Shown here in pieces: positions 5,038 through 49,630 of a stretch of 52,626 nt of DNA; position 1 is the stretch's first letter; each line of letters opens with the position of its first letter. The notes under the pieces are model-generated. The model saw only the letters and a list, made by a program, of their open reading frames with translations. It was not told the origin of the DNA and ran no database searches. Source of the stretch: Candidatus Gottesmanbacteria bacterium (GTDB taxonomy: Bacteria > Patescibacteriota > Microgenomatia > UBA10105 > UBA927). Position numbers and translations under genes: made by a program. Where the stretch lies: positions 334,114 through 386,739 of the forward strand of contig OY970230.1 of NCBI GenBank assembly GCA_963714095.1, written 5' to 3'.

Positions 5038-5115
5038 TTACATTACGCCACAAGCACCTCTCCCGGTTAGGGATTGTTTCTTTGCTTTTTTGCTGATGAA
5101 ACAATAGGTACTCAT
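5038..5115 (-). CDS. possible 25-codon leader ORF (MSTYCFISKKAKKQSLTGRGACGVM)
   Basis: Below the ORF-track size cut-off. AGGAG lies 9 nt upstream of the ATG at 5115. It sits between a TTGACA-17-TATATG promoter and the terminator at 4989..5014. Confidence 0.3.
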   Translation of the reverse strand: MSTYCFISKKAKKQSLTGRGACGVM

Positions 5116-5130
5116 AGATATAAGCTCCTA

Positions 5131-5159
5131 CATATACACGTTGTTTTATATTCTGTCAA
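5131..5159 (-). promoter_or_regulatory. sigma70-like promoter (TTGACA-17-TATATG) downstream of the greA stop
   Basis: Minus-strand read: TTGACA at 5159..5154, 17-nt spacer, TATATG at 5136..5131. Confidence 0.4.
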
Positions 5160-5176
5160 TAGCCCAATCGAAAACT

Positions 5177-5644
5177 TTATTCAATTCCCAGAATCTTATA
5201 GATGACTTTGCCCGCCGGCGCTTCAACTTCCACACGGTCGCCGACTTTTTTGCCCATAAGAGCTTTCCCGAGCGGCGATTCGTGGGAAATCTTTTTCTGT
5301 TTCGGATCTGCTTCCCATTCACCGACCAGCATAAATTCATCCCTTTTGCCGTTGATATGCAAAATGACTTTGCATCCCACGTCTACCTGGGTTTTCTGGT
5401 GATTACCGGAGATGAGCTTAGCGCCGTGAATAATTTCCTCGAGTTCCAGAATTCTGCCGTCTATGAAAGAAAGGTCCTGTTTGGCTGCCGCGTACTCACT
5501 GTTTTCCGACAAATCCCCCAGCTCGCGGGCGTCGGAAAGGCGCTGCACCGCTTCGGGTCGCTTTACATCGAAAAGCTCTTTATACTCGCGCTTGAGCTCA
5601 ACGAGGCCATCTTTTGTCAGTAACACTTTATTATTCGGATCCAT
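5177..5644 (-). CDS. greA: transcription elongation factor GreA
   Basis: 155 aa. LTKDGLVELKREYKEL, ARELGDLSENSEYAAAK and the C-terminal FKBP-like domain are typical of GreA. Confidence 0.95.
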   Translation of the reverse strand: MDPNNKVLLTKDGLVELKREYKELFDVKRPEAVQRLSDARELGDLSENSEYAAAKQDLSFIDGRILELEEIIHGAKLISGNHQKTQVDVGCKVILHINGKRDEFMLVGEWEADPKQKKISHESPLGKALMGKKVGDRVEVEAPAGKVIYKILGIE

Positions 5645-5653
5645 AGGTGAGCT

Positions 5654-5690
5654 AAAAAAAACCTCCCTACAATCAATAGGATATAGGGAG
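5654..5690 (-). terminator. terminator-like hairpin plus U8 inside the greA 5' leader
   Basis: Minus-strand read: CTCCCTA-14 nt-TAGGGAG, then G, then TTTTTTTT, ending 9 nt before the greA ATG (5644). Confidence 0.45.
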
Positions 5691-5710
5691 CGACTAATAA
5701 ATACTGAGAA

Positions 5711-5739
5711 ATTGTATCGGATTTGTGTTGCTATGTCAA
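5711..5739 (-). promoter_or_regulatory. greA promoter, TTGACA-17-TACAAT
   Basis: Minus-strand read: TTGACA at 5739..5734, 17-nt spacer, TACAAT at 5716..5711. Near-consensus. Confidence 0.55.
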
Positions 5740-5756
5740 GACTAAGCTGGTAAAAT
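5728..5756 (+). promoter_or_regulatory. tRNA-Glu promoter, TTGCTA-17-TAAAAT
   Basis: TTGCTA at 5728..5733, 17-nt spacer, TAAAAT at 5751..5756, 11 nt before the tRNA 5' end. Its -35 abuts the divergent greA -35. Confidence 0.45.
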
Positions 5757-5767
5757 TAGCTTCAGTA

Positions 5768-5839
5768 GCCGCGTTCGTATAACGGTTAGTACGGTAGATT
5801 CTCAATCTATCAACAAGGGTCCGACTCCCTTACGCGGTA
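5768..5839 (+). tRNA. tRNA-Glu (anticodon CUC), no encoded CCA
   Basis: Hand-folded cloverleaf. Acceptor GCCGCGT/ACGCGGT (G1:U72). D-arm GTAT-AACGGTTA-GTAC. Anticodon arm GTAGA-TTCTCAA-TCTAT. 4-nt variable loop. T-arm AAGGG-TCCGACT-CCCTT. Discriminator A. Confidence 0.8.
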
Positions 5840-6201
5840 CTTTCATTAGGAAGCTCTTCTACCTTCAGAACTTTTGCAGCCCTATACCAGCCATCGTTAC
5901 ATTGAAACACGCGGTATTCAATTTCCAAACGGATTTTCTTCCCTGTTTTTGTATTACACAAAACTATCGTCGTCCCCTGCATTTTAATTAATTCTTCTGC
6001 CAGTTCGTTTCGATACGCTTCCGGATCAACACTTTTATCTAACGTGTCGTATGTATGAAGTTTTGAAAATTCATCAGCAGTATACCCCGCGGTATGAAGT
6101 ACTTTTTCGTTCGCCCACACAAAACTTTTGTCATACAAATCGATAACAAAATCTACCGTATCGAGATATTTTCTTGCCTCGGTAACGACCTGGTTATCCA
6201 T
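5830..6201 (-). CDS. small PAS-like domain protein
   Basis: I use the internal ATG at 6201 (MDNQVVTEARKYL...). The longer ORF-track start (6348) would overlap the degV start. The layout FVWANEKVLHTAGYTADEF...TKTGKKIRLEIEY is PAS-like. The 3' end overlaps the tRNA by 10 nt on the opposite strand. Confidence 0.55.
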   Translation of the reverse strand: MDNQVVTEARKYLDTVDFVIDLYDKSFVWANEKVLHTAGYTADEFSKLHTYDTLDKSVDPEAYRNELAEELIKMQGTTIVLCNTKTGKKIRLEIEYRVFQCNDGWYRAAKVLKVEELPNESTA

Positions 6202-6315
6202 ATATCCGGTAGTTACATTATATACACCCTTGTCAAACAAAATACTCCGGATTCTTGCCTTTTTAAAAAAATCCGCTACAATACATCGGTTCACCCTGTC
6301 CGTCTGCCTTAAACT

Positions 6316-7155
6316 ATGGCAACTACCGCAGAAGCACCACGAGTTCATGTCATCACCGATTCAACAAGCGATGTCCCCCCGCAGATGGCAAAAGACTGGG
6401 ATATAGACATTCTTCACGGGAGAATTATATTCGGGGAAACAACATATACAGACGGGATTGACATTTCCCCTCCGGAGTTCATCGACATGCTGAAAAAACC
6501 GCATCTTATCCTGAAAACCTCACAATGCACCCCGAAGGAATATACCGAAATTTTTAACGCTCATCCGGAACCGATTATTTCCGTCAATATAGCACGTAAA
6601 TTCAGCGGTTTCATAACGACAGGTCAGATGGCGGCAAAAGAGCTGGGACGGTTCGATATCAGCTTCTTTGATTCCGGAAACGCTTCGCTGGGAAGCGGCC
6701 TATTGGCTCTTGCCGCAGCCAGGTGGGCGCGTGAGGGATTAACACCACTCGATATTATGAAAAAACTCGAAGACATGAAAAGGCGGACGACTGTCTATGC
6801 GCTGGCCGATGTGCTGGAATACCTTCGTGAAAGCGGAAGAATCAGTCCGGCTGAATTAGCTTTTGGCAACATATTAAATATTAAACCGATTCTCCGGCTG
6901 AAAGACGGAGAAGCTCACTCGTACGCTAAAGCCAGAACTAGTAGTAAGGGCATAGATATGCTCATCGAAAAAGTTATCGAGCATGAACCGTTTGAAGAAA
7001 TCGGGGTTATGCAGGCGGATAATGAAGCAGGAGCCCGGCGCGTGGCGGAAGCATTACAGCCATACGTTAAAAAACCAATTGTTGTTGCCGAACTCACCCC
7101 CACAGTAACAGCCCATCTCGGGCCAGGTATCGGAGTCGCATTTGTCACCGAGTAG
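6316..7155 (+). CDS. DegV-family fatty-acid-binding protein
   Basis: 279 aa. VHVITDSTSDVP at the N-terminus and LGPGIGVAF at the C-terminus are DegV hallmarks. Confidence 0.9.
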   Translation: MATTAEAPRVHVITDSTSDVPPQMAKDWDIDILHGRIIFGETTYTDGIDISPPEFIDMLKKPHLILKTSQCTPKEYTEIFNAHPEPIISVNIARKFSGFITTGQMAAKELGRFDISFFDSGNASLGSGLLALAAARWAREGLTPLDIMKKLEDMKRRTTVYALADVLEYLRESGRISPAELAFGNILNIKPILRLKDGEAHSYAKARTSSKGIDMLIEKVIEHEPFEEIGVMQADNEAGARRVAEALQPYVKKPIVVAELTPTVTAHLGPGIGVAFVTE

Positions 7156-7164
7156 ATTTGAAAT

Positions 7165-7407
7165 TTACCGCGCCAGCGCCGTATAGACGACGGCCAAATC
7201 CCAGCCTATGATGAGGAGGTTCACCACAAGCGTCATTGGGGCCAAACGGTTACTCCGTTTGAGTTTATAGGTAACCAGCGCAATCAGAATAATTGAAACA
7301 ATAATCCCGATGATTTTATACGTCACGGACATGGGAACAAAGCTCACGAGTATTGCGATAATCCATACCGCGATCGTCATCTGATTCTCCATATCACCAG
7401 TGTACAC
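7165..7407 (-). CDS. small membrane protein (2 TM helices), hypothetical
   Basis: 80 aa with two hydrophobic helices. The ORF-track start is GTG; an in-frame ATG at 7392 is an alternative start. Confidence 0.5.
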   Translation of the reverse strand: MYTGDMENQMTIAVWIIAILVSFVPMSVTYKIIGIIVSIILIALVTYKLKRSNRLAPMTLVVNLLIIGWDLAVVYTALAR

Positions 7408-7430
7408 GACTCTAGTAGAATATAGAATAT

Positions 7431-7733
7431 ATGGTTACCCTCAACGTAAAAATCCTCTCAGGCCTGTGGGAAAAATCAAAGGGACTTATCGGCGTACAGA
7501 AAATAGAACCTATTTTCTTAACCACGCGCTGGGGCATCCATACATTCGGAGTCCGTTCCCCTATCGATATCTTGATTTTGGATGACAAAAACCTGGTTGT
7601 TTCACTTCGCACCCTTCCTCCTAACCGCCTGTTTTTCTGGAACCCGGTCTATAAAAACGTCATCGAACTCCCCGCGGGAGACGTTAAGAATAAAGGTATT
7701 AAAGTCGGAGAAAAAATACAGTTGCACGGATAA
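7431..7733 (+). CDS. DUF192 (COG1430) family protein
   Basis: 100 aa. GLIGV...WGIHTFGVRSPIDILILD...VIELPAG matches the DUF192 pattern. Confidence 0.8.
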   Translation: MVTLNVKILSGLWEKSKGLIGVQKIEPIFLTTRWGIHTFGVRSPIDILILDDKNLVVSLRTLPPNRLFFWNPVYKNVIELPAGDVKNKGIKVGEKIQLHG

Positions 7734-7757
7734 ACAATGTAACTTCAATGAGGCTGA

Positions 7758-8084
7758 TTATTTAAGATATCTATTCACCTTTGAAGATGCGCTTACACGT
7801 TTCAATTGCTTCAGGGTAATGGTTGCAGTCTCTCCGAATACAGCGTTGTTTTCGGCGACAATAAGTCTGGCGACATTCCAAGTGAGTGATTTGGCTTCTT
7901 TCTTACCTTTCCTGCTTCCATGTAGCAGTTCATTGTCCAATATGGACCATACCGCCGCCCAAATTTCTAAACCGGTACGGCCTCTTCCCATCGCCGCGCC
8001 GATAACACCTTCTAACTCATTCCGTTCGGAATGCGGATGGTCAGGCATAGGTAATTGAGTACCAAGAGGAGATTCTTTTATCAT
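7758..8084 (-). CDS. hypothetical protein
   Basis: 108 aa, no recognisable family. Supported by a well-formed leaderless promoter: TTGTAT (8119..8114), 17-nt spacer, TATAAT (8096..8091), then 6 nt to the ATG at 8084. Confidence 0.5.
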   Translation of the reverse strand: MIKESPLGTQLPMPDHPHSERNELEGVIGAAMGRGRTGLEIWAAVWSILDNELLHGSRKGKKEAKSLTWNVARLIVAENNAVFGETATITLKQLKRVSASSKVNRYLK

Positions 8085-8317
8085 GCTACTATTATAGGAT
8101 ATTTTGACCGGAAATACAAGGGTACCGGTCTTCCGTGGTATTATTGTTTTGCAATGAAAAATAACTCATCCTTCTTTTTCTTATCTCCGGCCCGTGGTTT
8201 GCAAAAAATCCCCGCCTACGTCGCCTACAAATCCTGCACAAAACGCCTCATCCCGTTTGTCTATTAATTCCCCAATCTCCGTGTAACAAAGTGTTTATCT
8301 TGCTATAATGCACACTA

Positions 8318-9439
8318 GTGCAAATTACCCACCCCTTGAACATTCTATTTGTCTACCTCGCCAAGCAGCGCGATAGCCGCGTGGACATGGAGATTGATAT
8401 CACCGAACTGTGGCACCTGGTTGAAACACTTGGAAACGCACGCGTCATAGATCTAATTTACCAAAAAGGTGAAGAATTCGCCTCAACCTATATCGGCCCG
8501 GGGAAGGCATCGGAGGTCGGTGAGTACCTCAAAACCCATCCCACGGACATCATCGTATGTAACGGCCAAATGAAACCCAGCCAAAAATTTAATCTGTTAA
8601 AGCTCTATTGGTCTCTTAGGCCGAATATCCAAATCTGGGACCGGGTAGACCTTATCCTCGCCATATTCTCCCGTCACGCGCGCACGACCGAGGCCAAACT
8701 CCAAATAGAGCTTGCTCGGATGTACAGCATGGGGCCCAGGATTTACGGCATGGGCATGGTGCTTTCGCGCCAGGGCGGCGGGATCGGAGGACGCGGCATC
8801 GGGGAAACAAATACGGAACTCATGCAGCGGCACTGGAAACGCGAAATTGCGCGCACCAAAAAAATGCTCGCGCAGTCCGCTGCCACGCGCCAACACCAGA
8901 TGGACCACAGAAAAAACCTCGGACTACAGACGATCTCCATCGTGGGATACACAAACGCAGGGAAAACATCGTTGTTTAACCTGCTCACGCATAAAAAACA
9001 TCTGGTGGAAAACGCTTTGTTTGCGACGCTGGACAGCACAGTCGGAGAAATATATATGCTGAGTCTCGGAAAAAAAGTGCTGATCTCTGACACCATCGGA
9101 TTTATCGCCAACTTGCCGCCATCCCTCATTGAAGCATTTAAATCAACGCTCATGGAGTCGGTCCACGCCGATGTAGTGCTCCATATCATCGATGCATCAG
9201 ATCCCCTGATGATGGAAAAGATCAAAATCGTGAATGACATCCTTACTCAACTTCACATTCCGCTTGAAAAAGAAGTATTGGTGTATAACAAAATTGATGC
9301 TATACCTGCCTTGGATAAACAAAAAATATCAGCGGCTGCCGGCGCCATTCCTCATGTCTTTATCTCCGCCAAAACCAAGGAAGGGATCGAAACGCTCACA
9401 TCAATAGTGCTTCCACAAATAATTCAAAAGGGTTTGTGA
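8318..9439 (+). CDS. hflX: GTPase HflX
   Basis: 373 aa. Contains GGIGGRGIGETNTE, the G1 motif GYTNAGKTSLFN, LFATLD and DTIGFI. GTG start 8 nt after an extended -10 (TGcTATAAT, 8301..8309). Confidence 0.9.
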   Translation: MQITHPLNILFVYLAKQRDSRVDMEIDITELWHLVETLGNARVIDLIYQKGEEFASTYIGPGKASEVGEYLKTHPTDIIVCNGQMKPSQKFNLLKLYWSLRPNIQIWDRVDLILAIFSRHARTTEAKLQIELARMYSMGPRIYGMGMVLSRQGGGIGGRGIGETNTELMQRHWKREIARTKKMLAQSAATRQHQMDHRKNLGLQTISIVGYTNAGKTSLFNLLTHKKHLVENALFATLDSTVGEIYMLSLGKKVLISDTIGFIANLPPSLIEAFKSTLMESVHADVVLHIIDASDPLMMEKIKIVNDILTQLHIPLEKEVLVYNKIDAIPALDKQKISAAAGAIPHVFISAKTKEGIETLTSIVLPQIIQKGL

Positions 9440-9468
9440 CCCTGATTCCGTTCATCTACTAATCCCAT

Positions 9469-10224
9469 TTATTTTTCAAACTTCCTCACAACCGCGCGGT
9501 ATTTGCAAAAGTCGCAATCCGGTCCTGGTGCGGGTAAATGCTCGCTTTGCAAGCATTTAATCGCATCGTAAATCGTTCCTGCGACCCATGAATCGTCACC
9601 GACGTAGGGAATGATTTTGATATCAAATTCCAGCTTCCCGTCGAACGCTTTCTTGTCGGTATTCCCGTTGCAGTACACAAAATATCCGGTATCGGAAACG
9701 GTAAACCCGTTCTTCCGGAACAGCCACTGGTAAATTTCCATCTGCCGCTTGTACCCTATCTGCCAATCGGCATCCAGCGTGACTTCCGCATCCTTAGCCG
9801 TGGATTTGTAATCTACAATACAAATCTCTCCGTCAGGCTTCACCCACACGTCATCCACCCCACCGGTAACCACGACATTCGTGCCCTCGATTCGGAATGT
9901 AATCCCCGCACGCAAAGAATCGCGCCACTCGTTCATCTTTTCGTGCGCGAGCGGCACGGCATCAATACCGTAATGTTCCATCAGTGGATGCCGCGTGCCT
10001 TTGGCCCTGTGGATATCAAATTCTTTTTTGAGGAGCTTATCGACCGCGGAATTGAGGGAAAACGGATATCCCGGCGGCTGCGCAACGCCCAATTTTCTAT
10101 CCAAATAAAAGCACCGCGGACAGTTGATAAACAAATCCACCTTCCCCCTGCTCAACCTAAATAGATCTTTAGAGGTTGAATCATACTTATTTCTCGCGCG
10201 GTTTGGATTGTAGTATTGAGACAT
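9469..10224 (-). CDS. Cas4/AddB-like PD-(D/E)XK nuclease with a putative Fe-S cysteine set
   Basis: 251 aa. N-terminal CPRC. Nuclease core GGVDDVWV..GEICIVDYKS and QMEIYQWL. C-terminal C-x13-CDFC. No cas genes or CRISPR array nearby. Confidence 0.75.
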   Translation of the reverse strand: MSQYYNPNRARNKYDSTSKDLFRLSRGKVDLFINCPRCFYLDRKLGVAQPPGYPFSLNSAVDKLLKKEFDIHRAKGTRHPLMEHYGIDAVPLAHEKMNEWRDSLRAGITFRIEGTNVVVTGGVDDVWVKPDGEICIVDYKSTAKDAEVTLDADWQIGYKRQMEIYQWLFRKNGFTVSDTGYFVYCNGNTDKKAFDGKLEFDIKIIPYVGDDSWVAGTIYDAIKCLQSEHLPAPGPDCDFCKYRAVVRKFEK

Positions 10225-10244
10225 ATATTTTAAATTACAAAAAA

Positions 10245-11015
10245 TTATTTTAACCGATAATTTCCTCTACCCGTAAATTCAAGATATCCCTTATCGCGTA
10301 ATACCTGTAGCTGCTGTCTGATTTTATCTTTAATATGATGATTATCTAAATGTTTAACGCTTAATTCGTTTTCGAATACATAGATGTCACTAAGCGAAAA
10401 ATCTCTGCGTCCAAGCCTTTCGACGCATAACATGACATCCAATAGCCACCCCTTTGCGCTTAATTCTTTTTCTTCCCGTAAAAATATCGTCTTTTGCCAG
10501 TCTGCCAATACCTTTTCTTTCGGCTCAATCTGTTTTTCTTTAACAAAAAATATTTTCCCAGCTTGCGGAATACTTTGTAAATTAATGGTGCATCCTACCC
10601 AACCCGCCCGCTCTGCTGTGGACGCAAGCGGCGGTCTTTTCTCAATAATTCCGGGGATAAAAAAATGTTTTGGTATGACAAAGAAATTCTGCACTTCAAG
10701 ATTTGGTAAATTGTAGTGAAGTAAAAATAGATTTGGATTGTTACTGCTATGCAACCGCTCAATCATGGTGCGATATGCGCCATCGACTATTTTTGCCCCA
10801 ATAGCGTTTTGTTTGCTTTTTAACTCATAATCTTCTTTGCAATTGCTGCAATAGAAATCAGCAACCGGCTGATTATTCGGATATTTATCAATATCCATGT
10901 GACCACAATTCGGACAAAAAACCGATTCATCAACCCAACGTTCCGTCAAAACACGGGCTTTCTGTGATAAACTTGTATAATTGACCGCAATCTGCTGATC
11001 AAATGCTAACTTCAT
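10245..11015 (-). CDS. DpnI-family methyl-directed (GmATC) restriction endonuclease
   Basis: 256 aa. From memory it is collinear with pneumococcal DpnI: SQKARVLTERWV, CPNCG, PVADFYCSNC, ELKSK, DGAY, NNPNLFLL, RAGWVGC, and the C-terminal winged helix NHHIKDKIRQQLQVLRDKGYLEFTGRGNYR. Confidence 0.85.
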   Translation of the reverse strand: MKLAFDQQIAVNYTSLSQKARVLTERWVDESVFCPNCGHMDIDKYPNNQPVADFYCSNCKEDYELKSKQNAIGAKIVDGAYRTMIERLHSSNNPNLFLLHYNLPNLEVQNFFVIPKHFFIPGIIEKRPPLASTAERAGWVGCTINLQSIPQAGKIFFVKEKQIEPKEKVLADWQKTIFLREEKELSAKGWLLDVMLCVERLGRRDFSLSDIYVFENELSVKHLDNHHIKDKIRQQLQVLRDKGYLEFTGRGNYRLK

Positions 11016-11084
11016 ATCAATTTATAATTACCCTCCCAGCGCAAGCGATGGTAAAATTATACTCCGCTCACGCACACGAATCGA

Positions 11085-11807
11085 TTATTTTGATACTGAT
11101 TCGAGCGCTTTTTGGATTTTATCAATTTGATCAACTGATAAGGATATTTTATTCACATTAGCCTGAATTCTTTCCAGTAACCATCTCGCGCCGATAACGC
11201 TAATACCATCGATAAGTTTCCTTCCGAAACGGACAGATGCAAACCTGCTAGAAAATACCAGAATCGGCTCGACAAGAGGAATTTCAATATTCAAATATTT
11301 AAAATAATTATATAACTCGCTTGCTTCGCTATTAGTTTGCCATAGAAAATCCTTTTCAAATTTTCTTCCATACCTGAGCAGTTGCTGCCCATCATACGAT
11401 ATACGACCTGCATGGCTTTTTACTTCAATAGCAAATATTCCGCTCGGACCAATTACAACAAAATCAATATTTGACTGTTTGTCCGGCAAAACTACGTTTG
11501 CTACTACTATATATGATTTTGGTAAACCTTCGAGAATCTTTTGGACAGATTCTTCGCCGCGAAGACCATATATGTAATCCCACCTTAGCATTATCTCCTC
11601 ATTTATCGGTTCCCTCATCACTAAGTAGATCAGAAGCACGATCACTCCGATAATATTGGCTTCTGGCTGTAAAAAGTGAAATTCTATAAGAAAAATTCCA
11701 TACGAAATTACCGCAATAAAATAGATATAAATAAAAAATAGGCCATATATCGAATGATCATTCTTCTGTTCTTCTAAATAAGTATCTTTTCCAATGATTT
11801 GGGCCAT
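11085..11807 (-). CDS. NERD (nuclease-related domain) protein with N-terminal TM helices
   Basis: 240 aa with two N-terminal hydrophobic helices. Then GLRGEESVQKILEGLP, IDFVVIGPSGIFAIEVKSHAG, the NERD signature. Leaderless-type promoter: TACTAT (11819..11814), 6 nt, ATG. Confidence 0.8.
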   Translation of the reverse strand: MAQIIGKDTYLEEQKNDHSIYGLFFIYIYFIAVISYGIFLIEFHFLQPEANIIGVIVLLIYLVMREPINEEIMLRWDYIYGLRGEESVQKILEGLPKSYIVVANVVLPDKQSNIDFVVIGPSGIFAIEVKSHAGRISYDGQQLLRYGRKFEKDFLWQTNSEASELYNYFKYLNIEIPLVEPILVFSSRFASVRFGRKLIDGISVIGARWLLERIQANVNKISLSVDQIDKIQKALESVSK

Positions 11808-11846: not shown

Positions 11847-12260
11847 CTAATGTGCGGGCAGGGTGGGCAGAAGGGTGAGACGCGGATCCTGTGCATGAAT
11901 GCCGATAAGACTTAGCAGAAGCTGGCGCCGGGCATCGATGGACAACGCCTCTTTCGTCTCATCATACGCAAAACAAGTAGAGAGATCGACTTGAACTCCC
12001 ATAACCGCGGGTTGTTGAAAACTATCCGGATTATTTTTGAGGGACAGGAGTGCCCGCACCCCTTTCTGTACACATTGGTCCAGCCATGCTCCGGATAAAC
12101 AGACGGAAACCGGTTCGTGATACCCGGTCTTGGCGAGTAACTGCTCAAGCACGCCGTCGGAAGAACCGACAAGAATTGCACCGGACTCCTTCTTCTCCAT
12201 CGCCCACTGGCGGACAGTATCCGGACTTTCCGTGATGAAAAACTCAAACTCTTTAGCCAT
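11847..12260 (-). CDS. hypothetical protein, tandem paralog A (137 aa)
   Basis: Start set at MAKEFEFFI (ATG at 12260), with TTGCTT-17-TATACT-7-ATG immediately upstream. The upstream part of the ORF-track ORF is promoter DNA read through. Confidence 0.6.
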   Translation of the reverse strand: MAKEFEFFITESPDTVRQWAMEKKESGAILVGSSDGVLEQLLAKTGYHEPVSVCLSGAWLDQCVQKGVRALLSLKNNPDSFQQPAVMGVQVDLSTCFAYDETKEALSIDARRQLLLSLIGIHAQDPRLTLLPTLPAH

Positions 12261-12318
12261 GAACGGCAGTATATTACGCGCCGCAGGCAGAAGCAACCGC
12301 ACGCGGGAAAGACGAGAA

Positions 12319-12738
12319 CTAGCGCGGGAGCGGGATCGGGGCGGGCAAAAGGGTAAGCCGTGGGTCGTAGCCAGCATCCCAGAGCCTTATTTTCAACAGT
12401 AAACTTCGCTCTTCCGGAAGTATTTCTATTTGTCGTTCCGCTTTTGCCAGACACCTCGTCAGATCTACGGTCACACCGGACACGCGCCGGTCTGGGAGGT
12501 GCTTTGCAAGAAGACTGGGCGTAAGGAGAATGCCCGTGGCCCATGTGATGCACTGTTCCAGCCAAGCGCCGGAAATCCGGGTAGAGAAATCATCTGCAGG
12601 CGCGGTATGATCCTGCAAATATTCCAGCAACTGGTCGGAATTGCCTACGATGATGGCACCTGCCTGTTTTCGCTCAGCCGCCCATGCAACAACTTTCGGA
12701 TGCTCTTCCCGAATGAAAAACTCAAACTCCTTAGCCAT
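12319..12738 (-). CDS. hypothetical protein, tandem paralog B (139 aa)
   Basis: Start at MAKEFEFFI (ATG at 12738), with TTGATT-17-TATACT-7-ATG upstream. Homologous to paralog A along its whole length. Confidence 0.6.
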   Translation of the reverse strand: MAKEFEFFIREEHPKVVAWAAERKQAGAIIVGNSDQLLEYLQDHTAPADDFSTRISGAWLEQCITWATGILLTPSLLAKHLPDRRVSGVTVDLTRCLAKAERQIEILPEERSLLLKIRLWDAGYDPRLTLLPAPIPLPR

Positions 12739-12813
12739 GAGCGGCAGTATAGTACGGGCCGGGAGTAGAATCAACCTTGCATTTGTCCGTTTCGTGTGCT
12801 ACGTTCGGGGTAT

Positions 12814-14318: not shown

Positions 14319-16007
14319 CTACCAGCCCCCGCCGCCCCCCCCGCCGCCCCCGCCGCCGGAGAATCCTCCCCCGCCGGAGAAACCGGAGGAAAAGCCTGTC
14401 GAAGATCTGGTCGTCACCGACTGTGCAAACGACACCGCTGCCGTGCGGCCGAGACTGTTGGCAAAAATAACCGTATTGAACGGACTGCCTGTCGGAGAAA
14501 CGTACCATGTGGGTTGTGTGATACCCAGGTCCGCAAACCTCTTTGCCCAAATTTCTTCTACGCCGAAAGCGATGGCATAGGGCAGGAGTTTTTCAAACAT
14601 CATCTGCTTACTTGCCTGAAATTTCAATTCGCTCTTCTGGCTCACGAGAAAATTCTTGAGTGACCGCGCAATGGCAGCCTGTTGCGACCCATATTCGGTC
14701 TTTCGCGGCATGTTTTTACCGAAAATGAGGGCAATAAGAAACAAAAGGAGATTGCCGGACAGAAGGGCAAACCCCGCCAATACGTAATATTTCGTGCGCT
14801 GTGTCTGCGGATTCTCGGGGAAAAAACCGTCGGCAACAAGCGAAGAATAAATGTCCTGTTTCACGGCGTCAAACGGAACAGACAGGTCCAGATCCGCAAA
14901 AGAAACGCGTTTCTTCTTCCCGAAAATCCCCTTCAGAAGCTCGGTCTCAAATGGTTGAATTTCCGAATCCGCAGGAGCGTTCCAATCCTTCTGTTTTTCA
15001 AACTCGAACACTCCTTTTGTCTTCTCGATAATATTGAGATATCCACGGCGTGCCAGATCCACAATGGTCGCGTATATATCACGCAAATCCGCCGACTCAT
15101 CAATCAGCGTGCCTGTCTCCGCAGGCGTTAGCTCCCGCAGTTTCTGGTTTTTCGGCGGGCTAAACCACGCGGGGACCTCCCCCATCGCGGGCTTGGGATC
15201 GCGGCCCGATACCCACCATTTGCGGATAACAAAAATAGGAGCGACAACATACCACACCAGTGCCGCGATACCGAAAATGGCAAGGGTAATTTTCCCGGCC
15301 ATGGTTGAAAGGAACGGTACAACTTCGAGCGGCTCCAACTGGGCAGCTATTCCTTTCGGAAACCCGACGACCATGGTCGCGCCTTCATATGCCCCAAGCG
15401 GCCGGCTCACGCTCACCGTCACGCCGCTATCCGTTTTTGAAATCAGACAGTCCTTCCCCGTTGAACCCTGCGCCCCTACAAAGCAGGAAACGTTTAAATC
15501 CGCGGCGGCGACTGGGCGCGGCAGCGTCACGGTTGCAGACGCTTCACCAACCGGTACCTGCCAGCTGGTGCCCACGGCATTCCAGTAAAGTTCATCATGC
15601 CCGGGAAAATACGTAAGGGCCCCGGCAACACGGTAGGAAATAATGTACCAGTGCAGGCCGGTTATCGTTTTATACGGATCACCTATTTTTAACTCATCCG
15701 TATCTGAATTCTGCGACTGTGTATACTGATACGCATTTCCCTGTTCATCGGTAACGGAAACGTTCGTGATGGTCATCGCGTACTTTTTTCCGTCAGCATT
15801 GGTTTTTATGTACGGGATATCACGGTAAATGCCGTGCCGCTGCGTATCAAAAAAATAATCGATGCGTTCGGTGACATCGATAGTGCCGTCGGGTTTGATG
15901 GCAACGGAGGTATCGTAACTCTGGATGTGTTCCCCGCTTTGGGCCCGAACAATCCCGGGTAGTACGAAACAAAAAAGTGAGAGAGTGAAAATAAATACTT
16001 TTTTCAT
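14319..16007 (-). CDS. DUF2207-family membrane protein
   Basis: 562 aa. Signal peptide, N-terminal IQSYDTSVAIKPDGTIDVTERIDYFF...HGIYRDIP, central TM helices and a Gly-rich tail GFSGGGGFSGGGGGGGGGGGW are typical of DUF2207. Confidence 0.85.
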   Translation of the reverse strand: MKKVFIFTLSLFCFVLPGIVRAQSGEHIQSYDTSVAIKPDGTIDVTERIDYFFDTQRHGIYRDIPYIKTNADGKKYAMTITNVSVTDEQGNAYQYTQSQNSDTDELKIGDPYKTITGLHWYIISYRVAGALTYFPGHDELYWNAVGTSWQVPVGEASATVTLPRPVAAADLNVSCFVGAQGSTGKDCLISKTDSGVTVSVSRPLGAYEGATMVVGFPKGIAAQLEPLEVVPFLSTMAGKITLAIFGIAALVWYVVAPIFVIRKWWVSGRDPKPAMGEVPAWFSPPKNQKLRELTPAETGTLIDESADLRDIYATIVDLARRGYLNIIEKTKGVFEFEKQKDWNAPADSEIQPFETELLKGIFGKKKRVSFADLDLSVPFDAVKQDIYSSLVADGFFPENPQTQRTKYYVLAGFALLSGNLLLFLIALIFGKNMPRKTEYGSQQAAIARSLKNFLVSQKSELKFQASKQMMFEKLLPYAIAFGVEEIWAKRFADLGITQPTWYVSPTGSPFNTVIFANSLGRTAAVSFAQSVTTRSSTGFSSGFSGGGGFSGGGGGGGGGGGW

Positions 16008-49201: not shown

Positions 49202-49630
49202 TTATTTTTGTAATTTTGTGTTTAATGTTTTAATGATATTAAATAATTCAGCTTTTTCGTTCCCTGATAAATAGGATAGCATCTTTTCGAGTTTATTTCT
49301 GCGGTCATGCATTGCCTGTTCGAGTAATTTTTTCCCTTCATCCGTGAGTGAAATGAGCACAAGTCTCCGGTCTTCTTTGTCTGCGCGGCGTTCGATGAGC
49401 GCAAGATCACATAACTTCGTAATTAAACTTGTTGCCGATGGCAACTCTATTCGGAAATATTCTGCGATATCACTCATGGATGTTACGGCACGATTCTTCA
49501 GAAAAAAGAGTGTCTGAATTTGTAATATACTGAGATGTATTAAATGATTTGTATACGACATCTCGTCTTTCATAAGGCGGGAAACCGCAAAAATCATCTC
49601 GACTAATTCATTAGGATTGTCTTGTTTCAT
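49202..49630 (-). CDS. MarR-family transcriptional regulator
   Basis: 142 aa. Winged helix: SILQIQTLFFLKNRAVTSMSDIAEYFRIELPSATSLITKL...DRRLVLISLT.EG. Confidence 0.9.
   Translation of the reverse strand: MKQDNPNELVEMIFAVSRLMKDEMSYTNHLIHLSILQIQTLFFLKNRAVTSMSDIAEYFRIELPSATSLITKLCDLALIERRADKEDRRLVLISLTDEGKKLLEQAMHDRRNKLEKMLSYLSGNEKAELFNIIKTLNTKLQK

What the first reader, a model, noticed from the sequence alone, without database searches (positions are those of the whole stretch)
9469..11807. Three-nuclease cluster: NERD protein, DpnI-family methyl-directed endonuclease and Cas4-like Fe-S nuclease, with no methyltransferase
Three consecutive minus-strand genes encode:
- A membrane-anchored NERD-domain protein.
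- A full-length DpnI homolog, which cuts only Dam-methylated GATC. The PD-(D/E)XK N-domain with CPNCG/ADFYCSNC and the winged-helix C-domain are both intact.
- Twenty nt downstream, a Cas4/AddB-like PD-(D/E)XK nuclease with a 4-Cys set (CPRC...C-x13-CxxC).

No methyltransferase, cas gene or CRISPR array is present. The dpnI and NERD genes (about 10245..11807) are visibly much more AT-rich than the flanking hflX and downstream genes; I did not compute the values. This suggests recent horizontal acquisition.

GATC is frequent in this window, so the host must be Dam-negative and the enzyme would target modified invader DNA. In pneumococcus the DpnI cassette carries a second gene of unknown role (dpnD). 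Here the co-transcribed partner is a second nuclease. That raises the possibility of a composite system: methyl-directed cleavage, then end-processing or degradation, plus a NERD effector. Such a system has not been characterised.
Basis: partly seen in the sequence, partly recalled or inferred. Interest (0 to 1): 0.7.

Follow-up and report, generated by a model that had tools for sequence, protein, structure and literature searches.

The report
Lone DpnI enzyme in defence hotspot
The three nuclease genes are real, but they are not one machine: a horizontally acquired DpnI-type enzyme that cuts methylated GATC sits between a membrane NERD protein typical of defence islands and a nuclease gene found across this whole bacterial phylum, so the locus is a fairly ordinary small defence islet.

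Summary
Three consecutive minus-strand genes encode:
- a Cas4-like PD-(D/E)XK nuclease (9469-10224);
- a full-length DpnI homologue (10245-11015), with every experimentally validated catalytic, zinc-binding and methyl-pocket residue intact;
- a NERD protein (11085-11807) with a hydrophobic N-terminus.

DpnI and NERD are AT-rich (GC 0.38 and 0.35; window 0.47). No methyltransferase motif or CRISPR array was found in the window.

The "composite three-nuclease system" is not supported.
- The Cas4-like gene has host-like GC (0.49). It is 65-89% identical across Patescibacteria and was found in at least 582 species genomes. None of the 80 best loci has DpnI within 6 kb.
- Of 80 DpnI loci, 3 have a Cas4-like gene nearby and 1 has a NERD-domain gene.
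- In relatives, the 5' side of the Cas4-like gene carries different defence genes: OLD/Gabija-like, GmrSD, Shedu, and Type I, III, IIG and ISP restriction enzymes.
- In one syntenic genome, NERD and the Cas4-like gene bracket a 6.5-kb Type IIG island instead of DpnI.

Best reading: a solitary Type IIM enzyme inserted as single-gene cargo into a defence hotspot. A defence-island NERD gene lies on one side and a vertically inherited solo Cas4-like nuclease on the other.

Interest is low to moderate.

The parts
10245..11015 (-). Solitary DpnI-family Type IIM restriction endonuclease, predicted to cut Gm6ATC. It is the horizontally acquired single-gene cargo.
   Evidence: - Domains: PF06044 plus PF17726; PADLOC mREase_II 3.4e-111.
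- 48% identical over 252 residues to S. pneumoniae R.DpnI (4ESJ, E 1.2e-82).
- Conserved residues (PMC3424567, PMC4117772): E25, D53, E64, K66; zinc ligands C34, C37, C56, C59; N48, R126, L129, R135, W138, G140; winged-helix K229, R231.
- GC 0.38, GC3 0.36.
11016..11084 (-). 69-nt spacer between NERD and DpnI. It holds a TATAAT (11061-11056) and a GGGAGGG Shine-Dalgarno-like run (11037-11031).
   Evidence: Read directly from the sequence. No terminator-like site lies here. Promoter function is inferred only.
11085..11807 (-). NERD-domain protein with a hydrophobic N-terminus. It is a defence-island-associated gene of unknown mechanism and sits at the far edge of the variable segment.
   Evidence: - PF08378 at 2.2e-19.
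- Hydrophobic stretch at residues 19-68; conserved D115...E128-x-K130.
- Syntenic homologues occur in L161 (71% identity) and L164 (43%) without DpnI.
- GC 0.35.
10225..10244 (-). 20-nt AT-rich junction between the DpnI stop codon and the Cas4-like start codon.
   Evidence: Sequence TTTTTTGTAATTTAAAATAT. Nothing upstream of the Cas4-like ATG is conserved in 22 relatives. Homology to relatives therefore ends at the start codon.
9469..10224 (-). Solo Cas4-like (RecB-family, PF12705) nuclease with conserved cysteines. It is a vertically inherited gene found across Patescibacteria and is not part of the acquired block.
   Evidence: - More than 8000 homologues, the best 120 at 77-89% identity.
- At least 582 species genomes.
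- 81 of 251 positions are at least 97% conserved, including D125, D138-x-K140, Q161-x3-Y165, C35, C38, C237 and C240.
- GC 0.49, like the host.
- AF2 model (pLDDT 74) matches the AdnA nuclease domain, Cas4 SSO0001, EXO5, RecE, MGME1 and AddB.
9429..9443 (-). Terminator-like hairpin with a T-run, about 25 nt after the Cas4-like stop codon.
   Evidence: Consensus scan. The count of such sites in the region is no higher than in shuffled sequence, so this is weak evidence.

Best explanation
The locus is a small defence islet in a Patescibacteria (Gottesmanbacteria-like) genome. It consists of three independent genes.

1. **DpnI homologue.** A stand-alone Type IIM enzyme, acquired horizontally as a single gene. 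By homology it binds fully methylated Gm6ATC through both its PD-(D/E)XK domain and its winged-helix domain, and cuts within the site. It would therefore destroy incoming DNA from Dam-positive sources. The host's own GATC sites must be unmethylated at adenine. This is inferred.
2. **NERD protein.** A separate defence-island resident with an intact D...ExK nuclease motif and a hydrophobic N-terminus. Its trigger and substrate are unknown.
3. **Cas4-like nuclease.** A vertically inherited gene found across the phylum, probably a housekeeping enzyme for DNA-end processing or repair. Its 5' flank is a recurrent insertion site for defence genes, and it is probably transcribed by read-through from whatever lies upstream.

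Adjacency and likely co-transcription of DpnI and the Cas4-like gene follow from that hotspot. They do not reflect a dedicated partnership.
For: **DpnI identity and integrity**
-, with residue roles taken from PMC3424567 and PMC4117772.

**Foreign origin of DpnI and NERD only**
- GC3 is 0.36 and 0.32, against 0.55-0.60 for neighbours including the Cas4-like gene.
- DpnI genes in related loci are also low-GC: mean 0.36 against 0.41 for their flanks, and lower in 40 of 50 loci.

**Cas4-like gene is conserved and unlinked**
- 65-89% identity across Microgenomates, Parcubacteria, Saccharibacteria and Gracilibacteria.
- DpnI in 0 of 80 loci, hflX in 0 of 80, NERD in 1 of 80.
- 543 neighbouring proteins fall into 442 clusters.

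**Hotspot on the 5' side**
- Position -1: OLD/GajA-like 6, GmrSD 3, Shedu 2, AlbA_2 2.
- Position -2: Type I REase 3, Type III REase 4, Type IIG 2, several methyltransferases.
- The 3' side is mostly housekeeping, including RpoB and FtsK.

**Synteny**
- L164 has DUF2207 (71%) ... NERD (43%) - [Type IIG plus 4 genes, GC 0.34] - Cas4-like (88%).
- L015 has Type ISP plus OLD directly upstream of the Cas4-like gene, then GreA-LysS downstream, as in the window.
- L161 keeps NERD between DUF2207 and GreA-LysS, without DpnI or the Cas4-like gene.

**DpnI loci**
- Cas4-like in 3 of 80 and NERD in 1 of 80.

**Literature**
- Solo Cas4 is over-represented in CPR and DPANN genomes, is vertically inherited and is sometimes next to RM genes (PMC5704561).
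Against: - All three genes are co-oriented with short gaps (20 and 69 nt), with no predicted terminator until after the Cas4-like gene. They may be one transcript.
- Two recurrences exist: DpnI-63aa-Cas4-like in L125 and DpnI-63aa-NERD in L171-L173.
- The Cas4-like gene lies at the 3' end of defence genes in roughly a quarter of the species examined. That could also mean a general functional link rather than only a hotspot.
- No activity, methylome or transcript data exist.
- Only 52 kb of a roughly 1.09-Mb genome could be checked for a Dam methyltransferase.
Confidence: 0.78

Rival explanations
1. This is the first reader's model: a dedicated composite system. DpnI cuts methylated invader DNA, the co-transcribed Cas4-like nuclease processes or degrades the ends, and the NERD protein acts as a further effector.
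For: - The genes are co-oriented with 20-nt and 69-nt gaps, and the only terminator-like site follows the Cas4-like gene.
- L125 repeats DpnI followed by the Cas4-like gene.
- L171-L173 repeat DpnI followed by NERD.
Against: - DpnI is within 6 kb of the Cas4-like gene in 0 of 80 Cas4-like loci, and a Cas4-like gene is nearby in 3 of 80 DpnI loci. NERD is in 1 of 80 DpnI loci.
- The Cas4-like gene has host GC, while DpnI and NERD do not.
- The Cas4-like gene is 65-89% identical across the phylum, unlike a mobile defence component.
- In L125 the usual 63-aa ORF and a 457-bp gap separate the two genes.
- NERD persists at the same position in relatives without DpnI.
Confidence: 0.05
2. General accessory model. 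The phylum-wide Cas4-like nuclease is a shared back-end for whatever restriction or defence genes sit upstream. It would act like RecBCD or AddAB, degrading DNA after restriction cleavage. Its placement at the 3' end of defence operons would ensure co-expression. DpnI is simply one of many front-ends.
For: - Defence genes are enriched at positions -1 and -2 but not at +1 and +2.
- The upstream gene is co-directional in 59 of 75 loci, and 28 gaps are 20 bp or less.
- No conserved promoter sequence lies upstream of the ATG.
- The fold resembles the AdnAB and AddB nuclease domains and EXO5.
- PMC5704561 raised a defence role for solo Cas4 next to RM genes in DPANN archaea.
Against: - Many upstream neighbours are housekeeping genes: AlaRS, YceG, NDK, SOD and peptidyl-prolyl isomerases.
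- Very strong conservation, adjacency to ftsK and fusions to the FtsK gamma domain point to chromosome metabolism.
- Defence genes clustering beside conserved anchor genes is a general property of hotspots and needs no functional link.
Confidence: 0.12
3. NERD-restriction partnership. This NERD family is a functional accessory of restriction endonucleases in general, for example as a membrane-located sensor or second nuclease. NERD plus DpnI would then be a two-gene unit, and only the Cas4-like gene would be unrelated.
For: - In 10 NERD-family contexts examined, the adjacent gene is a restriction enzyme in at least 6: DpnI (window, L171-L173), Type IIG (L164), Type ISP (L165), Type III Mod/Res (L166) and a ResIII protein (P0259 contig). 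Others carry AAA_15 or PLD genes.
- NERD and DpnI share low GC.
Against: - The partners are of four unrelated restriction types, and the gene order differs between cases.
- L161 and L170 have no restriction enzyme next to NERD.
- Only 1 of 80 DpnI loci has any NERD-domain ORF.
- Ten contexts is a small, non-random sample. The pattern is what plain defence-island co-localisation produces.
Confidence: 0.08

Closest known systems
R.DpnI of Streptococcus pneumoniae (Type IIM, PDB 4ESJ/4KYW)
   Same: - Same two-domain architecture: a PD-(D/E)XK domain with a Cys4 zinc site, plus a C-terminal winged helix.
- 48% identity over the full length.
- All validated catalytic, zinc-binding, base-contact and methyl-pocket residues are conserved.
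   Different: - It is found in a Patescibacteria genome as a lone gene.
- It lacks the 63-aa ORF, the methyltransferase remnant and the MutH-like ORF that accompany most homologues in this phylum.
- Whether the 63-aa ORF corresponds to pneumococcal dpnD was not tested.
Solo Cas4 / PF12705 Cas4-like nucleases of CPR and DPANN genomes (Hudaiberdiev et al. 2017, PMC5704561)
   Same: - A stand-alone RecB-family nuclease with conserved cysteines, in a small-genome bacterium with no CRISPR array in the window.
- Its conservation pattern fits vertical inheritance.
- It is sometimes adjacent to restriction-modification genes.
   Different: - It matches PF12705 rather than the Cas4 equivalog (TIGR00372 36 bits against a cut-off of 65).
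- The cysteines are arranged as CxxC at the N-terminus plus C-x12-CxxC at the C-terminus. From my own knowledge, Cas4 and AddB have one N-terminal and three C-terminal cysteines.
- Whether it belongs to the clades in that paper was not tested.
Defence islands and hotspots anchored by conserved core genes
   Same: - Conserved flanking genes: DUF2207 ... NERD on one side, and Cas4-like ... GreA-LysS on the other.
- Different defence cargo in each genome: DpnI here, Type IIG in L164, Type ISP plus OLD in L015, PLD-like plus Shedu-like in L007.
   Different: - No integrase, tRNA or flanking direct repeats mark the insertion.
- The cargo here is a single 771-bp gene.
NERD-domain modules in BREX PglW and MADS MAD6
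   Same: The NERD domain aligns to the N-terminal NERD regions of PglW and MAD6.
   Different: - This is a 240-aa stand-alone protein with a hydrophobic N-terminus and no kinase or other domains.
- Its scores are far below those families' cut-offs.

Membership tests
DpnI family (Type IIM, PF06044 + PF17726) | Full-length match to both the catalytic and the winged-helix domain models, above the gathering scores | tested here: met
   PF06044 267.7 bits (cut-off 26.7) over residues 1-181. PF17726 110.3 bits (cut-off 23) over residues 187-254. PADLOC mREase_II 3.4e-111.
DpnI family (Type IIM, PF06044 + PF17726) | Catalytic residues E25, D53, E64 and K66, plus the four zinc-binding cysteines | tested here: met
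   All are identical in the alignment to 4ESJ. Residue roles are from PMC3424567.
DpnI family (Type IIM, PF06044 + PF17726) | Methyl-binding cleft and base contacts (N48, R126, L129, R135, W138, G140) and winged-helix DNA-binding residues K229 and R231 | tested here: met
   All are conserved. Residue roles are from PMC4117772.
DpnI family (Type IIM, PF06044 + PF17726) | Cleavage only of adenine-methylated GATC, in a host that lacks Dam methylation | not testable with these tools
   No methyltransferase motif occurs in the 52.6-kb window. The rest of the roughly 1.09-Mb genome and the methylome are not available.
CRISPR-associated Cas4 (TIGR00372 / PF01930) | Score above the equivalog cut-off | tested here: not met
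   TIGR00372 scores 36.2 bits against a cut-off of 65. The only Pfam hit is PF12705.
CRISPR-associated Cas4 (TIGR00372 / PF01930) | Location in a cas1/cas2 adaptation module or next to a CRISPR array | tested here: inconclusive
   No spaced repeats occur in the window. Cas families are not among the common neighbour families across 80 loci. cas genes were not searched for as such in the window: only 12 of its roughly 65 predicted ORFs were scanned against family libraries.
RecB-family PD-(D/E)XK nucleases (PF12705 PDDEXK_1) | Model match above cut-off, with conserved D...D/ExK and QxxxY motifs | tested here: met
   54.1 bits against a cut-off of 22. D125, D138-x-K140 and Q161-x3-Y165 are at least 97% conserved. 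The fold matches AdnA, Cas4, EXO5 and AddB.
RecB-family PD-(D/E)XK nucleases (PF12705 PDDEXK_1) | Iron-sulfur cluster bound by four cysteines, as in Cas4, AddB and EXO5 | tested here: inconclusive
   Four invariant cysteines exist (C35, C38, C237, C240) plus C224. The 2+2(3) arrangement differs from the classical 1+3 arrangement. The metal, Fe-S or Zn, cannot be decided from sequence.
NERD domain proteins (PF08378) | Model match above cut-off, with a conserved D...ExK core | tested here: met
   70.4 bits against a cut-off of 22.1. D115, E128 and K130 are at least 90% conserved in 33 homologues.
Multi-gene defence system (conserved operon) | The component genes co-occur and stay adjacent across unrelated genomes | tested here: not met
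   DpnI beside the Cas4-like gene: 0 of 80 and 3 of 80. DpnI beside NERD: 1 of 80 DpnI loci and 2 of 10 NERD contexts. The Cas4-like gene beside NERD: 1 of 80, plus L164 at 7 kb.

The most novel reading that the evidence does not exclude
The Cas4-like nuclease, conserved across Patescibacteria, may be a shared end-processing or degradation partner for whatever restriction or defence genes are inserted at its 5' side. It would stand in for RecBCD or AddAB and be expressed by read-through from those genes. The DpnI-to-Cas4-like junction in this window would be one example. The NERD family may likewise be a general accessory of restriction enzymes.
Probability: 0.12. Interest if true: 0.7.

Novelty: new member of a known kind. 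Interest (0 to 1): 0.3.

Why it matters
An apparent three-nuclease system turns out to be a known Type IIM enzyme dropped into a defence hotspot, next to a conserved gene.

Three things may still be useful:
- It documents intact DpnI-type enzymes as common, mobile, low-GC genes in Patescibacteria. That implies pressure from Dam-methylated DNA, for example phages or host-derived DNA from Dam-positive bacteria.
- It identifies the 5' flank of a phylum-wide solo Cas4-like nuclease as a recurrent defence-gene insertion site. That flank could be used to look for new defence genes in CPR genomes.
- It raises the testable question of what this extremely conserved nuclease does.

Tried and rejected
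- **Exact-protein look-up of the window's DpnI.** Not on record, so the source contig could not be inspected beyond the window.
- **hflX adjacency.** hflX is not next to the Cas4-like gene in any of 80 relatives, so hflX linkage is not the argument. Conservation and variable neighbours are.
- **Mobile-element signatures around the low-GC block.** No flanking direct repeats and no integrase were found. The only tRNA is 3.6 kb away.
- **Sequence search of the PDB with the Cas4-like protein.** This gave only noise. A structure prediction followed by Foldseek was needed.
- **Phage database.** It holds no full-length DpnI or Cas4-like homologue, only a winged-helix-domain match to the HHPV4 enzyme.
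- **Conserved promoter upstream of the Cas4-like gene.** None was found in 22 relatives.
- **Sigma-70 promoter and terminator scans.** Site counts are no higher than in shuffled sequence. They are used only as weak support.
- **First gene-calling pass.** It missed many Cas4-like genes. I redid it with the tblastn anchor.
Full report
**What is there**

The window (52.6 kb, GC 0.471) carries three consecutive minus-strand ORFs at exactly the reported coordinates.

- **9469-10224 (251 aa).** It matches PF12705 PDDEXK_1 (54 bits). It hits Cas4 models only below their cut-offs (TIGR00372 36 bits against 65).
- **10245-11015 (256 aa).** It matches both DpnI domains (PF06044 5.8e-80, PF17726 5.2e-32) and PADLOC's Type II methyl-directed REase model (3.4e-111).
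- **11085-11807 (240 aa).** It matches PF08378 NERD (2.2e-19). Residues 19-68 are hydrophobic, enough for two membrane segments. The D115...E128-x-K130 motif is conserved in its family.

The gaps are 20 nt (DpnI to Cas4-like) and 69 nt (NERD to DpnI). The window has no spaced-repeat array. No long ORF carries a [DNS]PP[YFW] methyltransferase motif, apart from a chance TPPW in the lysyl-tRNA synthetase. cas genes were not searched for as such: only 12 of the roughly 65 predicted ORFs were scanned against a family library.

**DpnI**

The protein is 48% identical over 252 aligned residues to S. pneumoniae R.DpnI (4ESJ, E 1.2e-82). Residue roles come from two papers.

- PMC3424567 shows that D53, E64 and K66 are essential. 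It also identifies E25 and a zinc ion held by two CXXC motifs.
- PMC4117772 identifies L129, R135 and W138, with G140, as the cleft for the two methyl groups. N48, R126 and R135 read the guanines, and K229 and R231 matter in the winged helix.

All of these residues are identical in the window protein. I therefore predict an active enzyme specific for Gm6ATC. This is an inference from homology, not a demonstration.

GATC occurs 189 times in the window. That is 0.76-0.79 of expectation, so it is common but mildly depleted. The host must leave these sites unmethylated at adenine. I could check only the window for a Dam-like gene.

**Composition**

| Gene | GC | GC3 |
|---|---|---|
| DpnI | 0.38 | 0.36 |
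| NERD | 0.35 | 0.32 |
| Cas4-like | 0.49 | 0.59 |
| hflX | 0.49 | 0.58 |
| genes beyond NERD | 0.52-0.54 | 0.56-0.58 |

The low-GC block is 10245-11807 and excludes the Cas4-like gene. DpnI genes in related loci are also low-GC relative to their flanks (0.36 against 0.41; lower in 40 of 50 loci).

**The Cas4-like gene is conserved across the phylum**

- A protein search returned more than 8000 homologues. The best 120 are 77-89% identical and come from Gottesman-, Davies- and other Patescibacteria.
Identity falls with taxonomic distance: 88% in Gottesmanbacteria, 78-81% in other Microgenomates, and 65-74% in Parcubacteria, Saccharibacteria and Gracilibacteria.
- 81 of 251 positions are at least 97% conserved. 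They include D125, D138-x-K140, Q161-x3-Y165, C35, C38, C237 and C240.
- An AlphaFold model (pLDDT 74, pTM 0.75) matches the AdnA nuclease domain, Cas4 SSO0001, human EXO5, RecE, MGME1 and AddB.
- Some homologues carry a C-terminal FtsK-gamma domain. ftsK lies just downstream in three species.
- This fits the "solo Cas4" of CPR and DPANN genomes described as vertically inherited and of unknown repair or defence function (PMC5704561).

**Linkage tests**

- In the 80 best Cas4-like loci (6 kb each side), tblastn finds DpnI in 0, hflX in 0 and NERD in 1. A NERD-family HMM also finds 1.
- In 80 DpnI loci from metagenomes, 57 have at least 1 kb downstream. A Cas4-like gene is nearby in 3 and a NERD-domain ORF in 1.
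- The recurrent DpnI neighbours in this phylum are different:
  - a 63-aa ORF 2-9 nt downstream, in 34-35 loci;
  - a DPPY N6_N4 methyltransferase directly upstream, usually only a 65-100-aa N-terminal fragment, in about 20 loci;
  - a MutH/Sau3AI-like ORF, in 13-16 loci.
- None of these has a homologue in the window. The window's DpnI is therefore a bare single gene.

**A hotspot, not an operon**

- The 543 proteins encoded within four genes of the Cas4-like gene in 80 species fall into 442 clusters.
- The upstream gene is co-directional in 59 of 75 loci, with a median gap of 30 bp. The 20-nt junction is therefore typical and says nothing about DpnI.
- No sequence upstream of the ATG is conserved in 22 relatives.
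- Upstream neighbours are rich in defence genes:
  - position -1: OLD/GajA-like 6, GmrSD 3, Shedu 2, AlbA_2 2;
  - position -2: Type I REase 3, Type III REase 4, Type IIG 2, several methyltransferases.
- The downstream neighbours are mostly housekeeping.

Synteny with close relatives makes the structure explicit.

- **L164 (GCA_936414605.1).** It has DUF2207 (71% identical to window 14319-16007) ... NERD (43%) - [MmeI-like Type IIG plus four genes, GC 0.34] - Cas4-like (88%).
- **L015 (a complete Gottesmanbacteria chromosome).** It has Type ISP plus OLD directly upstream of the Cas4-like gene. Downstream it shares the window's 7165-7407 homologue, GreA and LysS.
- **L161.** It keeps NERD (71%) between DUF2207 and DUF192-GreA-LysS-Ham1, with neither DpnI nor the Cas4-like gene.

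NERD and the Cas4-like gene therefore behave as framework genes that bracket variable cargo. Here the cargo is DpnI alone.

**NERD**

The family is small in the database: 36 hits. I examined ten genomic contexts.

| Context | Neighbouring genes |
|---|---|
| window | DpnI |
| L171-L173 | DpnI, with order DpnI-63aa-NERD |
| L164 | Type IIG |
| L165 | Type ISP plus OLD |
| L166 | Type III Mod/Res |
| P0259 contig | ResIII plus SMC-like |
| L169 | AAA_15 and PLD genes |
| L170 | AAA ATPase, S8 peptidase and a PLD gene |
| L168 | DUF559 |
| L161 | RhuM and Fic |

This is the behaviour of a defence-island gene. The partners are too varied to support a specific DpnI partnership. The repeated adjacency to restriction enzymes is nevertheless worth a proper census.

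**Mechanism**

- *Shown.* The domain content, the conserved residues, the composition and the lack of conserved linkage.
- *Inferred.* DpnI restricts Dam-methylated incoming DNA. NERD is an independent membrane-associated nuclease of unknown trigger. The Cas4-like enzyme is a housekeeping DNA-end nuclease transcribed by read-through from upstream genes. A terminator-like hairpin follows it at 9443-9429 (weak evidence).

**Verdict**

The "three-nuclease composite system" is not supported. The locus is a new instance of known kinds of gene. Interest is 0.3. The residual novel reading is that the Cas4-like nuclease acts as a shared back-end for upstream defence genes. I put its probability at about 0.12.

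Noticed in passing
L081-L160 (for example L098 5799-7294, L105 3948-5629, L103, L111, L155): Most Patescibacteria DpnI genes sit in a fixed mini-cassette: a truncated 65-100-aa DPPY N6_N4 methyltransferase fragment (full length, 263 aa, in 3 loci) overlapping the DpnI start, then DpnI, then a 63-aa ORF 2-9 nt downstream, then a MutH/Sau3AI-like ORF. It looks as if DpnI lies within the remnants of an older methyltransferase-plus-endonuclease cassette, reminiscent of the pneumococcal DpnI/DpnII cassette swap. The window lacks all of these parts.
   Followed up: partly
window 9469-10224; L001-L080: The solo Cas4-like nuclease is extraordinarily conserved across Patescibacteria: 81 of 251 positions are at least 97% conserved. 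It has no conserved upstream sequence, and its 5' flank is a recurrent insertion site for defence genes. Some homologues are fused to an FtsK-gamma domain (P0003, P0009, P0113), and ftsK lies just downstream in three species.
   Followed up: partly
window 11085-11807; L161-L173: In at least 6 of 10 contexts examined, this small NERD family (hydrophobic N-terminus) lies directly beside restriction enzymes of four different types (IIM, IIG, ISP, III).
   Followed up: partly
window 11847-12774 (minus strand): Two tandem paralogous genes of about 138 aa each (MAKEFEFF...) form a 478-bp repeat unit. Their 5' flanks (71 nt, 83% identical) and 3' flanks (22 nt, 91% identical) are duplicated. A TATACT box lies 7-8 nt before each ATG, which suggests leaderless transcripts. 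GC is 0.53. There is no Pfam hit, and the genes are absent from the syntenic loci L161 and L164.
   Followed up: partly
whole window: Palindromic tetramers are under-represented: CTAG 0.60, GGCC 0.66 and GATC 0.76 of the Markov expectation. This may reflect past or present restriction pressure at GGCC and GATC.
   Followed up: no
window 8318-9439 (hflX) and 5100-8300: hflX lies convergent to the Cas4-like gene here, but it is not near the Cas4-like gene in any of 80 relatives. The stretch between the Cas4-like gene and GreA-LysS is rearranged among close relatives: L015 has a two-component system there, and L161 has MFS and DUF5674 genes.
   Followed up: partly
window 49202-49630 (minus strand) and 5830-6348 (minus strand): Two further low-GC ORFs (GC 0.37 and 0.40) stand out from their neighbours. 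The second has a weak PAS_9 hit and overlaps the end of tRNA-Glu (5768-5840). These may be other acquired genes.
   Followed up: no
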